64,000 nucleotides of DNA from an uncultured Muribaculaceae bacterium (GTDB lineage Bacteria; Bacillota_I; Bacilli_A; RF39; UBA660). The DNA is taken from assembly GCA_964408085.1 (NCBI GenBank), contig CAYOYB010000003.1, positions 18,806-82,805 on the forward strand, written 5' to 3'. Under the pieces are notes generated by a model that worked only from the letters and a program-made list of their open reading frames with translations, had not been told where the DNA came from and did no database searches. Position numbers and translations under genes: made by a program. Shown here piece after piece: positions 38,592 to 47,117 of this stretch (its first letter is position 1; each line of letters begins with the position of its first letter).

Positions 38592-39323
38592 TTATTTTAA
38601 AGATTTACTAGCTAAAGTCAATTCTCTGTCTACTGGTTTATTTTTTGATAAAAAATATAAATACTCATACAATCCATTAGATACTTTATTATCTGAAATA
38701 AGAGAAAATCCTAAATCTTTTTTACACTCATCACAAATAATAGTTTCCAATCTTTTAGTCAATACATTTATTGATACTTCTAAAGGACAATTTCTTAAAA
38801 ACGAAGGATTTATTACTTCACGCATATTTTGATAATTATATGCCCATTCAGTTAGTGGATTTTTTAAAGCATCTTTCCTTTGGCTAAATTCTTTACTATC
38901 TCTTCCTTGTTTCTCAAATGTTTCTTTCATAGAATCTTCATCTAGGTAGGGAACTACTTTTAACAATAGAACTCTATTAGGATAGTCGCTACAAATTTGA
39001 AGATAAGATTCTTCGTTTGATAAATCAATACATGGTATTTTCCCTCTAGCCAAAGAATTATCAATATCTGCTTTTTTAAAAGCATAATGTTCTAGATTAA
39101 GGCGGTTAGTATATTGATAATTCATTTGACAAATATCATCAAATGAAACATCACCTTTTACATCAGATACATTTGCTTCATCAGTTCTAGATTTACGAGT
39201 AGTATATTTAGTTATAATTTCAAGGTTGGGATATTTGGTAAGTAGTTCTCTAGAGACAAACGATTTTCCACTTCCTGTTTCACCAACAATTATTATAATT
39301 AAATCATTTGAATTATTCCCCAT
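38592..39323 (-). CDS. P-loop kinase, guanylate-kinase-like fold (paralog of 15665..16282)
   Basis: Walker A IIVGETGSGKSF. Motif YTTRKSRTDEANVSDVKGDVSFDDI resembles GK TTRxxRxxExxGxDYxF. Confidence 0.55.
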   Translation of the reverse strand: MGNNSNDLIIIIVGETGSGKSFVSRELLTKYPNLEIITKYTTRKSRTDEANVSDVKGDVSFDDICQMNYQYTNRLNLEHYAFKKADIDNSLARGKIPCIDLSNEESYLQICSDYPNRVLLLKVVPYLDEDSMKETFEKQGRDSKEFSQRKDALKNPLTEWAYNYQNMREVINPSFLRNCPLEVSINVLTKRLETIICDECKKDLGFSLISDNKVSNGLYEYLYFLSKNKPVDRELTLASKSLK

Positions 39324-39564
39324 ATGCTTATAAACCTCTCATTCTTTAATTGACCATGTCAATTAACAAGTGTGTTTACTAAATTGACAAAATTCAATTT
39401 AATTCTATAAAAATTATATCATATTTTTTAAACATATTAAAACTCGAACTATCGAAAAATTCAAAAGTTCGAGTTTTCTATCAATCTGGTGCCTTAACGG
39501 GTGACGTTTGGAAATTTTTATTAAGGTTAATTCCAATATTAATTATATCATAAATAATAGTTTT

Positions 39565-40680
39565 TTAAACATCTTTATTAAACAAATTATTTAAAGCAAT
39601 ATACCATTCATTATTTTGACTAAGTGTTGGATAATAATCCTTTATTTTTTTTAAATATGTTAGTAATGATTTTAATCGTAATTTTTTTGAAATGAAATTA
39701 ACAAATTCATCATTTAATGCAATTTCATTATTTATAATATTTTCCAAATATGTGTCAACTAAATAGTTGCAAAATTTATATTCCCCAGAATTATCTATTA
39801 TTTTTTGAAAAATTGCATTAGCAATTTCCTGTTTATTAGAAAAATATCTAATTAAATGCTTAGCACCTAATAAAATTTCATCATCAGTTTTATCTAGATA
39901 AGACATTTTAAAATTTTGTGCATTCAATAAAACCATCTCTTCAATTTTTATTTTTCCTAAAGAACTAAATTTTTGAAAAACCTCTATATATAGGAAGTTA
40001 AATGCTAATAATATTTCTTGTCGGTTAATATTTCCAAAAAGGTCTTTCTCAATTATCATACAAAATTCATTGAACTTATCAGCTTCTAAATTATCTATAA
40101 ATGTTTTAATTATTATACCTTTATTACCTTTAATTTCTTTTCTATTTCTATATAGCATAACTAATAAATCAAACAGTTTATTTTTTGGAATTTTGCTTAA
40201 CAATTCTTCAGAATACTTTTTTGAATTCGGACAAAATGGTCCTTTTATTTCTTCATACCACTCATCAATACTATTAATAGTTTTACTTTCACCTATTTCT
40301 TTTAATATAACTTGATCTAATAAAATTAAAACTGCATCTGTTATATCTTTATTATAATTCTTCTTTGTATGGCTCATTGGATTCCTAAAATATTCAATTA
40401 ATCCTTTAGATAAATCACAAATACCACGATGCATATTTTTATCATTTTCTGTTTCCAATTTATTAATTTTTATTAATGGTTTCTTCTCAGAAAATGCTTT
40501 GTTTATCAAATCCACACCATCATTATCTAACAAGTCAGACTTTTTTCTTATTTCACTACATAAATATAAAATAGCGTCTCTAATTGACTCTGTATAATCT
40601 TCTTTATTGTAGTGTAATTCTATACTCTTTACAAAGTCTTCGTTTTTTAATTTTATCATAAACATACCTCCATTAAACAT
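39565..40680 (-). CDS. HEPN-domain protein (Rx4H motif; Abi/TIGR02391-like), 371 aa
   Basis: LIEYFRNPMSHT contains the HEPN R-x4-H motif in a predicted helical context. The C-terminal 250 aa are unassigned. Confidence 0.45.
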   Translation of the reverse strand: MFNGGMFMIKLKNEDFVKSIELHYNKEDYTESIRDAILYLCSEIRKKSDLLDNDGVDLINKAFSEKKPLIKINKLETENDKNMHRGICDLSKGLIEYFRNPMSHTKKNYNKDITDAVLILLDQVILKEIGESKTINSIDEWYEEIKGPFCPNSKKYSEELLSKIPKNKLFDLLVMLYRNRKEIKGNKGIIIKTFIDNLEADKFNEFCMIIEKDLFGNINRQEILLAFNFLYIEVFQKFSSLGKIKIEEMVLLNAQNFKMSYLDKTDDEILLGAKHLIRYFSNKQEIANAIFQKIIDNSGEYKFCNYLVDTYLENIINNEIALNDEFVNFISKKLRLKSLLTYLKKIKDYYPTLSQNNEWYIALNNLFNKDV

Positions 40681-40711
40681 TCAATCCTTCTGCACTATAA
40701 TTATTTATTAT

Positions 40712-41356
40712 TTAATTTTCTATCAATTCACATTCATAATTAGATAATGAGCATTTAATTGTTATATCAAATCTATCAGTATTTCGAATCTTGGCATTAT
40801 AATATATATTTTGTGTATCTACTTTTTCAATATAATTAATCATAACATATTCTAAAGGATTATTAGATATATTGGAAGTATCAAATTTTAATTCTTTTTT
40901 TTGAAAATTTTCCCTTTCTAATGTATATTCTAACAATAAACCACCTAGACATCTATTAATAAAAAGTTTGTTTTGGTTATTTTTATCATCACTATAGAAA
41001 TAATTATACCTTTCATATTTATATAAATCATCTTGATTACCACAAGATTCAATCTCATCAAGTAAAATATAATCATTATCATTAATTTTATAAAATAAAC
41101 CATTAATTCCACCTTCGTCGTGATGTTCTAAAGTAATATCTGCAATTGCATAGGTTTCTATATTATCATCATAATAAAAAGTATAAGAATTTATATTTTT
41201 ATTTTTTAAATCAAAATGTTCAAAATCGGCATATTGGTCAATTTGTGTTTTATTTCCACAACCACATATACATAATATCAAAAAGAAAAATAAAACTACA
41301 TTTTTTTTCACACTAATCACCAAGAATATTATATCAAATTTATTATAATTTAACAA
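40712..41356 (-). CDS. lipoprotein, function unknown
   Basis: Signal peptide with lipobox LILCICGCGN. 214 aa. Confidence 0.5.
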   Translation of the reverse strand: MLNYNKFDIIFLVISVKKNVVLFFFLILCICGCGNKTQIDQYADFEHFDLKNKNINSYTFYYDDNIETYAIADITLEHHDEGGINGLFYKINDNDYILLDEIESCGNQDDLYKYERYNYFYSDDKNNQNKLFINRCLGGLLLEYTLERENFQKKELKFDTSNISNNPLEYVMINYIEKVDTQNIYYNAKIRNTDRFDITIKCSLSNYECELIEN

Positions 41357-41376
41357 AAAAATAAATATTTTCGTAT

Positions 41377-41697
41377 TTATTTTTTTCCTATTTCTTTCTT
41401 CTTTTTTAAAATATCTTCAATTTTACTTTGCATTTTACTATCATTAATCCATTCAGAATAAAATATAGTATCTGGTGTCATATTAAATATAACTGATAAC
41501 ATAATCGCCATTTCATAACTTAAGTTTCTTTGACCATTAATTATCTGCCATATAAATGGTTTAGAACACCCAATAATTTTAGATAAATCATTATACGTAT
41601 ATTCACTTCTATCTTTTAATGATTTAAGCATTTCACATTTTTTTCTCATATAAATATATCTTCTTTTCCTCCTTTCATATAAGTAGTAATTAGTCAT
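41377..41697 (-). CDS. XRE-family HTH regulator (element repressor candidate)
   Basis: LKSLKDRSEYTYNDLSKIIGCSKPFIWQIINGQRNLS is an HTH_3 pattern. Divergent from 41735..42016. Confidence 0.55.
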   Translation of the reverse strand: MTNYYLYERRKRRYIYMRKKCEMLKSLKDRSEYTYNDLSKIIGCSKPFIWQIINGQRNLSYEMAIMLSVIFNMTPDTIFYSEWINDSKMQSKIEDILKKKKEIGKK

Positions 41698-41734
41698 ATA
41701 TGACGTCGACGGAAGTCAAATAAAAATATATAAT

Positions 41735-42016
41735 TTGGTTATATATGACAAATTTCAAACTAGTTTTATCACAAGAATGGAGGTGCTTGCCGTGGTTAAT
41801 ATAACTAATCAAGATAGAATATACATTGCTCATAATATTCTTAAATTTAGAAAGGCTAAAGGGTTAACTCAAGAACAATTAGCCTTTGAGGCTGGCACAA
41901 CCAATAAATGTATAAGTGATTTAGAACTAGGTAAAAGAAATGTTAAAATTGATACTATTTCTAGAGTTGCTAAAGCACTTGGTGTTAAATTATCAGATTT
42001 AACAAAAATGAATTGA
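41735..42016 (+). CDS. XRE-family HTH regulator (Cro-like)
   Basis: LKFRKAKGLTQEQLAFEAGTTNKCISDLELGKRNVKIDTISRVAKALGVKLSDL is a classic HTH_3. The start may be the internal MEVLAVV. Confidence 0.65.
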   Translation: MVIYDKFQTSFITRMEVLAVVNITNQDRIYIAHNILKFRKAKGLTQEQLAFEAGTTNKCISDLELGKRNVKIDTISRVAKALGVKLSDLTKMN

Positions 42017-42127
42017 CTATTTACTACCTATTTTAATTATAACAGAAAAAAGTTAGTATGTCCCTATATGATACCTTCTTTTTTCTTTTTTTATGAGAAA
42101 ATTATTTATATAAGGTGGTAGTAAGGT

Positions 42128-42433
42128 ATGAAAATAAATAATGCTTTTGACTTATTTGATTTAGTTGATAAAAATTTGCCACAAGATTATAAAATAAATA
42201 TATGTAAAAATATGCGTAAATTTCGTATTGAGAAATATAATCAATTCAAGTCAGAAAATAAAGGAACTGAAAACCCATATAGTGTAGATAATATTGCCGA
42301 ATTATTGGGGATTAGTAAAGTTCATTATAAAAGATTAGAAAATGTTAATGATAAATGCAAACATATAAATTTAGATAAACTGATTATTTTATCGATTATT
42401 TATGAAAAGAAACTTGATGATTTCATAAAATAA
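42128..42433 (+). CDS. HTH-domain protein (XRE-like), 101 aa
   Basis: MRKFRIEKYN...SVDNIAELLGISKVHYKRLEN matches the HTH_3 pattern. Followed by a perfect hairpin aaaggggtattcccctttg at 42505-42523. Confidence 0.45.
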   Translation: MKINNAFDLFDLVDKNLPQDYKINICKNMRKFRIEKYNQFKSENKGTENPYSVDNIAELLGISKVHYKRLENVNDKCKHINLDKLIILSIIYEKKLDDFIK

Positions 42434-42579
42434 TGAATAAATAAAAAGTGTAATATAAATCTTATTAATGGATTTTATTACACTTTTTATATGGATTTGG
42501 GGGTTTCAAAAGGGGTATTCCCCTTTGCACACCGTTATTGGCTTTGCCAATAGCGTAGTGTGTTTACTCTTTTGGTTTT

Positions 42580-43308
42580 TCAAAAAATTGTTTTGATAAC
42601 TTTGTCAGTACCATTTATCAACTCATCAACTTCATCTTTAGTTGGTTCTCTATCTTTATTATGGTCACATAAATTTCTTATATCGCCTAAATGTTGAATA
42701 AATCTCCAATTAATAATGTCATAGATGTTTTCCTGTTTAAATAAATCATTATAATCACTTATACATGGTTCTTTTTTAGACAATTTTAAATTATGGTTTT
42801 TAAGCATAGTGGAAAAATGTTTCTCTAAAATAACTCCACATAGTGCACCAGCACTTCTGAGATAACCCTTTTTCCATAATTTTCTTGATGAAAGCAATTC
42901 ATCATCTAATATTTCAAGTTCCATACTATTTTTTATATTGAATAAAACATTATCAACACTTTCACTTATTGATTTAATAATATTAATTTGATTAATAAAT
43001 TTTATTAAAGCAGTAGCTTTTGGGTCAAAACGCTGCCTACCACATGATACCCCTGTAATATAATCGTATATTGAAAAATTAGAATAAGTTATTCCTTTTC
43101 TATTCAAACACTTATAACACTCAGCAAATTCATCATATCTATTAGGTAATATTTCCTTAACTATAATACTTGCCTTTGTATACCAGATTTGATATTCCTG
43201 AGCAATTATAAGCGCACGTTTATTTTTTACATCATCAGAAAATTTTTTTAATATTTCACTACCATCGTTATATAATTGAACAATTGAATCTTTTATCGCC
43301 TTATTCAT
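42580..43308 (-). CDS. hypothetical protein with C-terminal HEPN-like Rx4H motif
   Basis: QHLGDIRNLCDHNKD (R-x4-H) near the C-terminus, as in C-terminal HEPN/Abi families. 242 aa; sits immediately downstream of the relaxase. Confidence 0.35.
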   Translation of the reverse strand: MNKAIKDSIVQLYNDGSEILKKFSDDVKNKRALIIAQEYQIWYTKASIIVKEILPNRYDEFAECYKCLNRKGITYSNFSIYDYITGVSCGRQRFDPKATALIKFINQINIIKSISESVDNVLFNIKNSMELEILDDELLSSRKLWKKGYLRSAGALCGVILEKHFSTMLKNHNLKLSKKEPCISDYNDLFKQENIYDIINWRFIQHLGDIRNLCDHNKDREPTKDEVDELINGTDKVIKTIF

Positions 43309-43404
43309 TTTTTATTTTACCTCCTTATATAAAAATTAGCATTAAAATATATTTTTTTATACTTTTCAAATCGAAACAATTATAGCACACTTTGACAATC
43401 TTTT

Positions 43405-46463
<3,059 letters not shown>

Positions 46464-46668
46464 TTATCAACTCCTTTTCTATAAAAAAGAAGTCAAAAGA
46501 ATTAGTTCAAATACTACTACCTTTGACTTCTAAAATATAATTATAATTTTGTTTATTTCTAATTTAGGCATAGTAGTACCTCTCTTTCCAATAAAAGACT
46601 AGATACTGCTTGCTTTTATTAAGTTTATATTTTATCATTTATTTTTCTTTTGTCAATAGGGTTAGTTT

Positions 46669-46947
46669 TTATGTGTTTTTATGTGTTTTTATATAATTTT
46701 CTAATTCGTTAAATGGTATAAATTTTTCTAATGTATTGATATAAACATTTTCACATTCATTAAAGAATAAATATGTTATATTACCAATAACTAGTTTATG
46801 AGGCTCAATATAAGCAAGATTAGTTTTAGGAATATTAATTATATTTCCTTTTTGTATTTTTTCTTTAATATTTAGAAACATTAAGATATTTTTTACTCTT
46901 TTCTTTAGTGTTTCTTCTATTTCTAATTTTTCCTTTATTATTTGCAT
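46669..46947 (-). CDS. small hypothetical protein (possible recombination directionality factor)
   Basis: 92-aa ORF between the recombinase and the attR/tRNA end. No motif. Confidence 0.3.
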   Translation of the reverse strand: MQIIKEKLEIEETLKKRVKNILMFLNIKEKIQKGNIINIPKTNLAYIEPHKLVIGNITYLFFNECENVYINTLEKFIPFNELENYIKTHKNT

Positions 46948-46966
46948 AACTAATCAACTCCTCTCA

Positions 46967-46992
46967 AAGCATAATAAAAAAGGTTAACCGAA
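46967..46992 (-). terminator. intrinsic terminator downstream of tRNA-Arg
   Basis: Perfect 9-bp stem aaaggttaa-ccgaaa-ttaaccttt, followed on the minus strand by TTTTTTAT. Confidence 0.55.
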
Positions 46993-47022
46993 ATTAACCT
47001 TTAATATATTTAAAGTCGATTA

Positions 47023-47040
47023 GTTCGACTAATTTCCCTA

Positions 47041-47045
<5 letters not shown>
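47023..47045. repeat. attR-like direct repeat overlapping the tRNA-Arg 3' end
   Basis: gttcgactaatttccctatggtg. The last 5 nt are the tRNA 3' terminus (rc CACCA). Confidence 0.6.

Positions 47046-47117
<72 letters not shown>

What the first reader, a model, noticed from the sequence alone, without database searches (positions are those of the whole stretch)
39565..40680. HEPN-motif (Rx4H) protein carried as cargo on the mobile element - candidate abortive-infection/RNase effector
The 371-aa protein contains FRNPMSH (R-x4-H), the defining HEPN motif. It lies in the N-terminal third in a context resembling Abi-like/TIGR02391 proteins. The large C-terminal domain is unassigned.

HEPN proteins on mobile elements are typically RNase toxins of abortive-infection or TA systems. 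No cognate partner is obvious; the adjacent genes are a lipoprotein and a GK-like kinase.
Basis: partly seen in the sequence, partly recalled or inferred. Interest (0 to 1): 0.6.

Follow-up and report, generated by a model that had tools for sequence, protein, structure and literature searches.

The report
Ymh-type HEPN defence RNase gene
The gene does encode a HEPN-type (predicted RNA-cutting) protein of the known Ymh/TIGR02391 family fused to an undescribed helical domain, most likely a one-gene anti-phage suicide switch on a small mobile element; nearly all its relatives end in a copy of the SSB protein's tail, which this copy lacks.

Summary
ORF 39565-40680(-) is real (371 aa; the likely start is M8 at 40659, giving 364 aa). 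FRNPMSH sits at residues 98-104.

An Rx4H motif alone is weak evidence, at about 0.1 expected per protein. However, residues 13-119 match Pfam Hypoth_Ymh (73 bits, cut-off 25) and TIGR02391 (68.5 bits, cut-off 39.45). R99 and H104 are invariant in 58 relatives down to about 20% identity. A confident AlphaFold model puts the motif at the end of helix 3, as in HEPN domains.

The C-terminal 240 residues form a conserved all-helical solenoid with no Pfam family. It is found almost only behind Ymh HEPN domains. Once it sits behind a CHAT protease, which suggests an exchangeable sensor module.

Neighbouring genes vary between relatives, so there is no conserved partner. Relatives sit on small integrative elements or next to restriction-modification genes.

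The closest working analogue is DARNA (PD-T7-3), an N-terminal HEPN joined to a helical ssDNA sensor. Homology to it is only hinted at.

One result was unexpected. About 85% of full-length relatives end in [DE]3-[IL]PF, which is identical to the SSB C-terminal tip. The window's clade has lost this tail but is under purifying selection (dN/dS 0.14).

This is a new variant of a known kind, of moderate interest.

The parts
39565..40680 (-). Longest ORF of the Ymh-HEPN gene (371 aa, stop included). The probable real start is the ATG at 40659 (M8), giving 364 aa.
40667..40671 (-). GGAGG ribosome-binding site, 7 nt upstream of the ATG at 40659.
   Evidence: read from the sequence
40288..40644 (-). 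N-terminal HEPN domain of the Ymh/TIGR02391 family (residues about 13-131). Predicted helices are H1 14-25, H2 29-48, an insert, H3 78-99 and H4 111-131.
40369..40389 (-). [quoted passage not shown]
39568..40287 (-). C-terminal all-helical (alpha-solenoid) domain, residues about 132-371. It is the predicted sensor or regulatory module. It has no Pfam family. It lacks the [DE]3-[IL]PF tail that ends most relatives.
39439..39477 (-). Stable hairpin (-18.6 kcal/mol, z = -3.35) followed by a U-rich stretch. It is the probable terminator of the transcription unit and separates it from the kinase-like gene.
40712..41356 (-). Probable lipoprotein (214 aa), 31 bp upstream on the same strand and probably co-transcribed. 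It is not conserved next to relatives.
41377..41697 (-). Xre-type HTH protein (106 aa), first gene of the same-strand run. It faces a divergent HTH_3 gene at 41735-42016(+).
42580..43308 (-). Second, unrelated HEPN-type protein (242 aa) with an invariant R211-N212-x3-H216.
43405..44661 (-). Mob_Pre relaxase (418 aa).
44658..46460 (-). Large serine recombinase (600 aa) with Resolvase, Recombinase and Zn_ribbon_recom domains.
47041..47117 (-). tRNA-Arg(TCT), bordering the recombinase end of the mobile module.

Best explanation
The gene encodes a self-contained, single-protein defence effector of the abortive-infection type, carried by a small integrative mobilisable element.

The N-terminal 120-130 residues are a Ymh/TIGR02391-family HEPN domain. 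By analogy with characterised HEPN enzymes, two copies would dimerise so that their R99-N100-x3-H104 motifs form a metal-independent RNase site. That site would cut host RNA, most plausibly tRNA or mRNA, and stop growth of the infected cell.

The C-terminal ~240-residue helical solenoid is the sensor or regulatory module. It would keep the RNase off until an infection-associated cue is bound. The closest working analogue is DARNA/PD-T7-3, where that cue is ssDNA exposed during phage replication.

In most relatives the module ends in an acidic [DE]3-[IL]PF tail identical to the SSB C-terminal tip. This points to coupling with ssDNA/SSB biology. The window's clade has lost that tail but is still under purifying selection.

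Shown here: family membership, motif conservation, HEPN-like topology, modular architecture, absence of a conserved partner, and mobile or defence-island contexts. Inferred: RNase activity, dimerisation, toxicity, the trigger, and phage defence.
For: - **Family membership.** Pfam Hypoth_Ymh scores 73 bits and TIGR02391 68.5 bits, both above their curated cut-offs. All 58 diverse relatives hit PF09509. Ymh is a HEPN family with a conserved Rx4-6H, linked to restriction-modification and Abi contexts (PMC3710099).
- **Motif conservation.** R99 and H104 are invariant, and N100 and P101 at least 90% conserved, across 58 sequences down to about 20% identity.
- **Topology.** The AF2 model of the N-domain has pLDDT 94.5. 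It shows four main helices, an insert between H2 and H3, R99 at the end of H3 and H104 in the H3-H4 loop. This is the arrangement described for HEPN domains.
- **Link to a validated system.** The HEPN part matches the PADLOC models PD-Lambda-3_B (58/58 members) and Aga_HEPN (56/58). PD-lambda-3B is an AbiJ_NTD3 + Hypoth_Ymh protein of an experimentally validated E. coli defence system.
- **C-domain as a module.** A profile search of 1.84 billion representatives gave 222 hits, nearly all 365-410 aa with the domain starting at residue about 118-130 behind an RNPxxH motif.
- **Effector swap.** One protein, P0146, carries the same module (61% identical, tail included) behind a CHAT protease domain instead.
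- **Evolutionary rates.** The C-domain evolves faster than the HEPN domain: 33-39% against 65-72% identity, and dN/dS 0.18 against 0.05. This is as expected for a sensor joined to an effector.
- **Contexts.** Relatives sit beside tyrosine or serine recombinases, Mob_Pre, RepA_N and TnpV. They also sit next to DpnII, type I restriction-modification subunits, HNH and Schlafen/AlbA_2 genes, with no neighbour conserved.
- **Analogue.** DARNA has the same layout: an N-terminal HEPN and a C-terminal Pds5-like helical ssDNA sensor. It acts as a tRNA anticodon nuclease through abortive infection (bioRxiv 10.64898/2026.02.22.705581). One relative's C-domain (P0169, residues 191-303) hits the PD-T7-3 profile collinearly at E=3.3e-4.
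- **The gene is live.** dN/dS against the 82%-identical orthologue is 0.14.
Against: - No experiment on any member of this exact architecture was found.
- Foldseek against the PDB gave no significant match for either domain. For the N-domain, HEPN structures (Csm6 4rgp, HepT 8xdj, AbiV 9bj7, 4nqf) appear only among hits with E>1. For the full model, only weak ARM/HEAT/PUF repeats appear at E>=0.03.
- The window protein itself does not hit the PD-T7-3 model. The single hit among 58 relatives is about p=0.02 after correction.
- The C-domain is not basic: net charge is about 0 here, with a family median of about -7. Charge therefore gives no support for nucleic-acid binding.
- No homologue was found in phage genomes and no phage-resistance data exist.
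- The window protein lacks the tail that characterises the family, so whatever the tail does cannot apply here.
- The limits of the mobile element were not determined.
Confidence: 0.6

Rival explanations
1. The protein is the toxin of an addiction (toxin-antitoxin-like) module. Its job is to stabilise the integrative element rather than to defend against phage. The antitoxin would be a neighbouring gene product, such as the upstream Xre-type HTH or the lipoprotein, or an unannotated RNA as in AbiF-type systems.
For: - HEPN domains are common TA toxins, for example HepT/MntA, and AbiF is inhibited by an RNA antitoxin (cited in the DARNA preprint).
- The gene is the last of a same-strand run of HTH, lipoprotein and HEPN genes on a mobile module.
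- Relatives are almost always on small mobile elements.
Against: - No neighbour is conserved among relatives. The upstream gene is DUF6076, HNH, DpnII, KilA-N or a P-loop protein in different loci.
- No MNT nucleotidyltransferase is adjacent.
- The lipoprotein is unrelated to the lipoprotein near L016.
- A covalently attached 240-residue regulatory domain makes a separate antitoxin unnecessary.
- No conserved upstream repeat or RNA was looked for beyond the repeat scan.
Confidence: 0.15
2. The protein interferes with incoming or replicating foreign ssDNA in general, including conjugative plasmids, rival IMEs and transforming DNA. It would serve the element as an exclusion or competition factor by engaging the host SSB interactome, and would not be specifically anti-phage.
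For: - The family tail [DE]3-[IL]PF equals the SSB-Ct (PMC5872125 and PMC5531588).
- The genes ride on mobilisable elements that themselves transfer as ssDNA, shown by the Mob_Pre relaxases.
- Ymh genes are frequent on conjugative plasmids: 52 of 87 plasmid hits.
Against: - The window protein has no tail.
- There is no direct evidence for any interaction.
- The same data fit anti-phage sensing equally well, as in DARNA.
Confidence: 0.12
3. This is a non-catalytic or housekeeping HEPN protein that binds RNA or nucleotides or acts as a regulator, like the MtlR-type HEPN proteins. It would have no role in genetic conflict.
For: - Some HEPN families are regulators or lack activity (PMC3710099).
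- The Foldseek list for the N-domain includes an MtlR-like protein, 3c8g, though not significantly.
Against: - The full catalytic signature R-N-x3-H is invariant. Inactive HEPN domains typically lose it.
- The gene has a patchy, mobile-element and restriction-modification-linked distribution.
- The module has been swapped onto a CHAT protease.
Confidence: 0.06
4. The window copy is a decaying, non-functional remnant, because it has lost the C-terminal tail that about 85% of relatives keep.
For: - The protein ends about 20-25 residues before the relatives do and lacks DLPF.
- The same is true of its 82% orthologue (P0002/L014) and of L019.
Against: - dN/dS between the two tail-less orthologues is 0.14. 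It is 0.05 in the HEPN domain and 0.18 in the C-domain, at dS about 0.66.
- The ORF is intact with a good RBS and a terminator.
- 14 of 92 full-length representatives also lack the tail.
Confidence: 0.05

Closest known systems
Ymh / Hypoth_Ymh (PF09509) / TIGR02391 family of HEPN domains (Anantharaman et al. 2013, PMC3710099)
   Same: The N-terminal domain is a bona fide member. It scores above the curated cut-offs, and it has a conserved R-N-x3-H and the HEPN helix topology. It also shares the association with restriction-modification genes and mobile elements.
   Different: The published architectures are solo domains or Ymh at the C-terminus of paraMORC, AbiJ-NTD1/2 or AbiTii domains. Here Ymh is N-terminal and is followed by a 240-residue helical domain that is not in Pfam.
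PD-lambda-3 (E. coli; Vassallo et al. 2022, PMC9519451), protein B
   Same: It has the same HEPN family. HHpred of PD-lambda-3B gives Hypoth_Ymh at 99.9%. The PADLOC PD-Lambda-3_B model hits the window protein at 6.7e-13 and all 58 relatives. The system is an experimentally validated anti-phage defence.
   Different: PD-lambda-3 lists three coding sequences, including a PD-(D/E)XK nuclease. Its B protein is AbiJ_NTD3 + Ymh, with the HEPN domain at the C-terminus. Only the HEPN part matches (profile positions 156-251). The window gene has no such partners and has a different second domain.
DARNA (PD-T7-3), the ssDNA-activated HEPN tRNase (bioRxiv 10.64898/2026.02.22.705581)
   Same: It is a single-gene system with the same layout: an N-terminal HEPN carrying Rx4H, then a C-terminal all-helical HEAT/Pds5-like sensor domain. 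It works through abortive infection and is linked to SSB/ssDNA biology. One relative's C-domain hits the PD-T7-3 profile collinearly at E=3.3e-4.
   Different: The window protein does not match the PD-T7-3 model, and PF09509 occurs only under PD-lambda-3B in the supplement holding the HHpred table (the PD-T7-3 rows themselves were not read). DARNA is 456 aa with R117/H122. No SSB-Ct-like tail is reported for it. Homology is unproven and the similarity is one of working principle.
HepT/MntA and other HEPN toxin-antitoxin pairs
   Same: They use a HEPN RNase toxin with an Rx4H motif and are frequent on mobile elements.
   Different: They require an adjacent MNT nucleotidyltransferase antitoxin. 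None is present here or next to relatives.
SSB C-terminal tip (SSB-Ct: DDDIPF in E. coli, DDDLPF in Gram-positives)
   Same: 78 of 92 full-length relatives end in [ILVMFP]P[FWLV]. IPF and LPF dominate, with D or E at positions -4 to -6. The Bacilli clade ends ...DISKISxEDLPF, compared with SSB ...IDISDDDLPF.
   Different: These proteins are not SSBs and have no OB fold. The window protein and its nearest orthologue lack the tail altogether. LPF is also a ClpXP degron in some S. mutans strains, and an Abi_C-family protein there ends in LPF (PMC5143411). Partner binding is therefore not the only possible reading.

Membership tests
HEPN superfamily | An Rx4-6H motif with a polar residue (N, D or H) straight after the R, conserved across the family. 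| tested here: met
   R99-N100-P-M-S-H104. R and H are invariant and N at least 90% conserved in 58 relatives. The criterion comes from PMC3710099.
HEPN superfamily | A four-helix up-down bundle with an insert between H2 and H3, with the motif at the end of H3 and the start of the H3-H4 loop. | tested here: met
   AF2 model with pLDDT 94.5: H1 14-25, H2 29-48, an insert with a short helix, H3 78-99 and H4 111-131. R99 is the last residue of H3 (compared). This rests on predicted secondary structure only.
HEPN superfamily | Significant 3D similarity to solved HEPN structures. | tested here: inconclusive
HEPN superfamily | Metal-independent RNase activity that depends on the R and H, with a composite site in a dimer. 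| not testable with these tools
   This needs biochemistry.
Ymh / PF09509 / TIGR02391 | A profile score above the curated gathering or trusted cut-off. | tested here: met
   PF09509: 73.1 bits against a cut-off of 25. TIGR02391: 68.5 bits against a cut-off of 39.45. 58 of 58 relatives hit PF09509.
   Abi_C is not among the Pfam hits at E<=1.
PD-lambda-3 | A B protein with AbiJ_NTD3 + Ymh, plus an adjacent PD-(D/E)XK nuclease gene. | tested here: not met
   Only the Ymh part of the PD-Lambda-3_B profile (positions 156-251) matches. There is no AbiJ N-terminal domain. The neighbours are a lipoprotein-like gene and a P-loop kinase-like gene.
DARNA / PD-T7-3 | A single polypeptide with an N-terminal HEPN and a C-terminal all-helical sensor domain. 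| tested here: met
   AF2 models and domain boundaries.
DARNA / PD-T7-3 | Sequence-profile membership (PADLOC model PD-T7-3). | tested here: not met
   The window protein has no hit at E<=1. One of 58 relatives (P0169) hits at 3.3e-4 in the C-domain, which is a hint only.
DARNA / PD-T7-3 | ssDNA-activated tRNA anticodon cleavage and a dodecameric assembly. | not testable with these tools
   This needs biochemistry or cryo-EM.
HEPN-MNT toxin-antitoxin | An adjacent minimal nucleotidyltransferase antitoxin gene. | tested here: not met
   No nucleotidyltransferase domain appears in the flanking ORFs or in the relatives' loci.
Ymh-HEPN + helical domain + SSB-Ct-like tail subfamily (defined here) | A C-terminal helical domain homologous to profile A2, directly after the Ymh domain. 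| tested here: met
   The profile was built with the window sequence. 222 representatives have E<=1e-3, with the same domain order.
Ymh-HEPN + helical domain + SSB-Ct-like tail subfamily (defined here) | A C-terminus of [DE]n-[IL]PF. | tested here: not met
   The window protein ends ...LFNKDV and its orthologue P0002 ends ...NNAKVVQ. 78 of 92 full-length representatives have the tail.

The most novel reading that the evidence does not exclude
The Ymh-HEPN/helical-domain family, and at least one CHAT-protease relative, would form a class of one-protein immune sensors whose sensor module ends in a molecular mimic of the SSB C-terminal tip.

The tail could work in one of three ways:

- It could plug the effector into the host SSB interactome at replication forks.
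- It could act as bait for phage proteins that target the SSB-Ct.
- It could fold back as an ssDNA-mimicking autoinhibitor that real ssDNA displaces.

On this reading the window's tail-less clade is a natural variant that has rewired or lost this control.
Probability: 0.3. Interest if true: 0.8.

Novelty: new variant of a known kind. Interest (0 to 1): 0.5.

Why it matters
On its own, the window gene is one more predicted HEPN abortive-infection effector on a mobile element of an uncultured gut Bacillota. That is a useful annotation but not a surprising one.

The family context adds three things:

- It defines a widespread architecture: an N-terminal Ymh HEPN joined to a new helical module. 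The module gave 222 clusters at 50% identity. One member was indexed in more than 3,500 blocks of the assembly collection. No paper found in the library describes it.
- It gives a second, independent family with the DARNA-like design of an RNase joined to a helical sensor. This suggests the design is general.
- It reveals an SSB-Ct-identical tail on most members. This is a concrete hypothesis that mutation can test, about how defence effectors are wired to ssDNA/SSB biology. Phage SSBs are already among the commonest triggers of defence systems.

The tail-less clade in this window offers a natural comparison.

Tried and rejected
- **Fold assignment of the C-domain.** Foldseek of the full model against the PDB gave only weak ARM/HEAT/PUF-type repeat hits (E 0.03-0.4, TM about 0.3). 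I take this as a generic alpha-solenoid, not as PUF homology.
- **PDB sequence searches.** Searches with family profiles found nothing meaningful.
- **Proving homology to DARNA.** I could not obtain the DARNA sequence (RCP48690.1), and its structure is not in the PDB copy. Only the one PADLOC hit remains.
- **Element boundaries.** The repeat scan gave only AT-rich chance-level repeats. Contig L001 is identical to window 39464-47033 but may come from the same sample and ends inside a hairpin, so it does not define the ends.
- **Promoter scan.** It was uninformative in this AT-rich DNA: 30 sites found against 30.7 expected.
- **Conserved partner.** The lipoprotein and the P-loop neighbours were compared with neighbours in other loci and are unrelated.
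- **Stand-alone C-domains.** Short representatives of 210-340 aa looked like stand-alone C-domains but are mostly N-terminally truncated gene calls.
- **Taxonomy of IPF- versus LPF-tailed members.** Cluster look-up returned no organism names. There is only a composition proxy: LPF-tailed proteins are more AT-rich in type.
- **Charge of the C-domain.** It gives no hint of nucleic-acid binding.
- **Remnant of the tail.** I saw no convincing remnant of a DLPF tail in the DNA after the stop codon.
Full report
**1. The observation.**

FRNPMSH is encoded at 40369-40389.

A GGAGG at 40667-40671 lies 7 nt upstream of the third in-frame ATG, at 40659, and only 1 nt from the second. Homologues start at or just after the equivalent of M8. 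The real product is therefore probably 364 aa. I keep the 371-aa numbering below.

The window is uniformly AT-rich, at about 22-31% GC.

An Rx4H motif alone is poor evidence. About 0.1 are expected in a protein of this composition, and 7 of 42 long open frames in the window have one. The fuller RNx3H form occurs only in this gene and in ORF 42580-43308.

**2. The N-terminal domain is a Ymh/TIGR02391 HEPN domain.**

- Residues 13-119 match Pfam PF09509 Hypoth_Ymh (E=2.3e-20; 73.1 bits, cut-off 25) and NCBIfam TIGR02391 (E=5.4e-19; 68.5 bits, cut-off 39.45).
- They also match the PADLOC models PD-Lambda-3_B (6.7e-13) and Aga_HEPN (3.7e-8), and phrog_6297.
- Anantharaman et al. 2013 list Ymh (PF09509) as a HEPN family with a conserved Rx4-6H. 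It occurs as solo domains or fused to paraMORC, AbiJ-NTD1 or AbiTii domains, and in operons with restriction-modification genes.
- In 20 close homologues YFRNPMSH is invariant. In 58 relatives down to about 20% identity, R99 and H104 are invariant and N100 and P101 at least 90% conserved. All 58 hit PF09509.
- An AlphaFold2 model of residues 8-135, built on a diverse alignment, has mean pLDDT 94.5. Its helices are at 14-25, 29-48, 78-99 and 111-131, with a short helix and loop inserted between the second and third.
- R99 ends helix 3 and H104 lies in the loop to helix 4. [quoted passage not shown]

**3. The C-terminal domain.**

Residues about 132-371 have no Pfam, NCBIfam or PADLOC family and no PDB sequence relative. 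The full-length model (pLDDT 81.7, and mostly 84-96 in 10-residue blocks from residue 141 on) is all-helical. It resembles only generic ARM/HEAT/PUF solenoids, weakly.

A profile of this domain alone (A2), searched against 1.84 billion cluster representatives, found 222 proteins at E<=1e-3. Almost all are 365-410 aa, with the domain beginning at residue about 118-130 and an RNPxxH motif at about residue 93. The domain is thus essentially dedicated to Ymh HEPN proteins. Shorter hits are mostly truncated gene calls.

There is one informative exception. P0146 (695 aa) has a CHAT caspase-like protease domain (Pfam E=3e-31). This is followed by the same module, which is 61% identical over 267 residues, tail included, to the module of a Ymh-HEPN protein. 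An effector swap on a constant C-terminal module is the usual signature of a sensor or regulatory domain in defence proteins.

Consistent with this, the C-domain diverges about twice as fast as the HEPN domain. Identity to the window protein is 33-39% against 65-72%, and dN/dS is 0.18 against 0.05.

**4. An unexpected family feature: an SSB-like tail.**

Of 92 full-length representatives, 78 end in [ILVMFP]P[FWLV]. Among roughly 130 representatives of at least 200 aa, IPF occurs 62 times, LPF 34 and VPF 6. Among the 96 IPF/LPF tails, D or E occupies position -4 in 84, -5 in 79 and -6 in 57. The consensus [DE]3-[IL]PF is the SSB C-terminal tip, which is DDDIPF in E. coli (PMC5872125) and DDDLPF in Gram-positives (PMC5531588).

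The Bacilli clade nearest the window ends ...DISKISxEDLPF. This resembles the Gram-positive SSB ending ...IDISDDDLPF. A cultured example is WP_012961169.1 on the A. pseudofirmus OF4 megaplasmid, which ends ...YVDLPF and sits next to type I restriction-modification genes.

I found no paper that links an SSB-Ct tail to a defence protein. One S. mutans study shows that C-terminal LPF is a strain-dependent ClpXP degron. It notes in passing that an Abi_C-family protein also ends in LPF (PMC5143411).

The window protein (...LFNKDV) and its 82% orthologue (P0002/L014...NNAKVVQ) stop about 20-25 residues early and lack the tail. I saw no convincing remnant of it in the DNA after the stop codon. These two genes are nevertheless under clear purifying selection (dN/dS 0.14 at dS 0.66). 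The tail-less form is therefore a living variant, not a wreck.

**5. Genomic context.**

The gene is the last of a same-strand run, which ends in a stable hairpin:

- an Xre-type HTH gene (41377-41697);
- a probable lipoprotein gene (40712-41356);
- the HEPN gene;
- a hairpin at 39439-39477 (-18.6 kcal/mol, z = -3.35) with a U-rich tail.

The P-loop, guanylate-kinase-like gene (38592-39323) lies beyond this hairpin and a 241-bp spacer. It is probably a separate transcription unit.

Upstream lie several other features:

- a divergent HTH_3 gene;
- a 242-aa ORF;
- a Mob_Pre relaxase (43405-44661);
- a large serine recombinase (44658-46460);
- tRNA-Arg (47041-47117).

This is an integrative mobilisable-element-like module. 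I could not fix its ends.

Relatives occur in uncultured gut Bacilli, Clostridia and 'Mollicutes' MAGs. They are repeatedly embedded in comparable modules with a tyrosine integrase or serine recombinase, Mob_Pre, RepA_N and TnpV. They also sit beside defence genes such as DpnII, type I M and S subunits, HNH and Schlafen/AlbA_2. The immediately adjacent genes differ from locus to locus, so there is no conserved partner. No homologue is present in the phage genome collection. On plasmids, most hits are to the HEPN domain only.

**6. How it most likely works.**

The shown facts are these:

- a catalytically intact HEPN domain;
- a faster-evolving, exchangeable C-terminal module;
- no partner gene;
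- mobile-element or defence-island residence;
- purifying selection.

From these I infer a one-protein abortive-infection effector. HEPN dimerisation would build the RNase site. The helical module would keep it silent until it binds an infection cue. RNA cleavage would then arrest the cell.

The best-characterised analogue is DARNA (PD-T7-3). It has an N-terminal HEPN (R117x4H122) and a C-terminal Pds5-like helical domain that binds ssDNA presented by phage SSB. It cleaves tRNA anticodon loops and acts through abortive infection.

The window protein does not match the PADLOC PD-T7-3 model. One relative's C-domain does, collinearly, at E=3.3e-4, which is about p=0.02 after correcting for 58 queries. 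I therefore claim 'works like DARNA' with moderate confidence and 'is a DARNA homologue' only as a lead.

The SSB-like tail of most relatives fits an ssDNA/SSB-centred trigger. Its role could be partner mimic, bait, autoinhibitor or degron, and this is open. It cannot apply to the window protein.

**7. Rivals.**

- **TA-type addiction toxin.** This is weakened by the lack of any conserved neighbour or MNT gene.
- **General anti-ssDNA or anti-plasmid exclusion factor.** This is compatible with the data and hard to separate from anti-phage defence.
- **Non-catalytic regulator.** The invariant R-N-x3-H argues against it.
- **Decaying remnant.** The dN/dS value argues against it.

**8. Novelty and score.**

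Membership in the HEPN/Ymh family is already captured by Pfam and TIGRFAM. NCBI names other members of this family 'TIGR02391 family protein'.

The following appear not to have been described in the searched literature:

- the specific architecture of an N-terminal Ymh HEPN joined to this helical module;
- the module's transfer to a CHAT protease;
- the SSB-Ct-identical tail.

I rate the finding a new variant of a known kind, with interest 0.5. It is ordinary as a HEPN toxin on a mobile element. It becomes more interesting because the family offers a clean, testable link between a defence effector and the SSB tail, with this window's clade as a natural tail-less comparison.

Noticed in passing
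window 42580-43308 (-): A second, unrelated HEPN-type protein (242 aa) lies next to the relaxase. It belongs to a family of more than 1,000 clusters with no Pfam hit for this copy. R211-N212-x3-H216 and E162/H164 are invariant in 26 homologues. Ten of the 26 hit Pfam HEPN (PF05168), 5 hit HEPN_RiboL-PSP and 4 hit DUF4145. hhalign against the Ymh profile aligns only the motif (E 0.3-0.5). The element therefore carries two different predicted HEPN RNases about 2 kb apart.
   Followed up: yes
relatives: P0003-P0120, P0121-P0268, L021 6977-8101; absent at window 39565-39600: About 85% of full-length family members end in [DE]3-[IL]PF, identical to the SSB C-terminal tip. The window protein, P0002/L014 and L019 lack it.
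   Followed up: partly
P0146 (JGI metagenome protein, 695 aa): A CHAT protease domain is fused to the same C-terminal helical module and tail. The module is 61% identical to that of the HEPN protein P0332. Only this one instance was seen. Other CHAT relatives carry WD40, TPR or SUMF1 C-termini instead.
   Followed up: partly
window 38592-39323 (-): A P-loop protein (243 aa) has sub-threshold guanylate-kinase similarity: TIGR03263 at 9e-8 and 31.9 bits against a cut-off of 160, and the phage 'guanylate kinase' phrog_1815 at 2.6e-12. It lies beyond the hairpin downstream of the HEPN gene. Its role is unknown.
   Followed up: no
window 41377-41697 (-), 41735-42016 (+), 42128-42433 (+): A divergent pair of Xre/HTH_3 regulators, plus a 101-aa ORF with no Pfam family hit, lies between the two HEPN genes. 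The arrangement looks like a cI/Cro-type switch controlling the cargo operon.
   Followed up: no
L007-L010, L017, L018, L020 (about 15 bp upstream of, or overlapping, the HEPN gene): In one subclade a 306-308-aa HNH endonuclease gene directly precedes the Ymh-HEPN gene in several different genomic settings. This is possibly a two-gene variant.
   Followed up: no
L002-L006: The homologue P0044 is indexed in 3,562 blocks of the assembly collection. It sits in a conserved small element between DUF6076 and DUF3800 genes, with a tyrosine integrase, Mob_Pre and RepA_N. The element is inserted at different chromosomal sites, so it is evidently very successful in human-gut Clostridia.
   Followed up: no
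L014 4924-9125: The 82% orthologue is not on an integrase/Mob module. It follows a same-strand run of DUF7822, a PEP-utilising-enzyme-domain protein (644 aa) and a small P-loop protein. This may be another defence-type operon.
   Followed up: no
window 39464-47033 = L001: A 7,570-bp contig from run SRR9130108 is identical to this stretch with 0 mismatches. It starts 8 bp from the tRNA-Arg 3' end and stops inside the terminator hairpin. It may mark the mobile unit, or it may be an assembly break from the same sample.
   Followed up: partly
PMC5143411 (S. mutans): C-terminal LPF is a ClpXP degron in some S. mutans strains. An Abi_C-family protein (AFM81543) in about 25 strains also ends in LPF. 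SSB-like tails may therefore occur on other Abi/HEPN families too.
   Followed up: no
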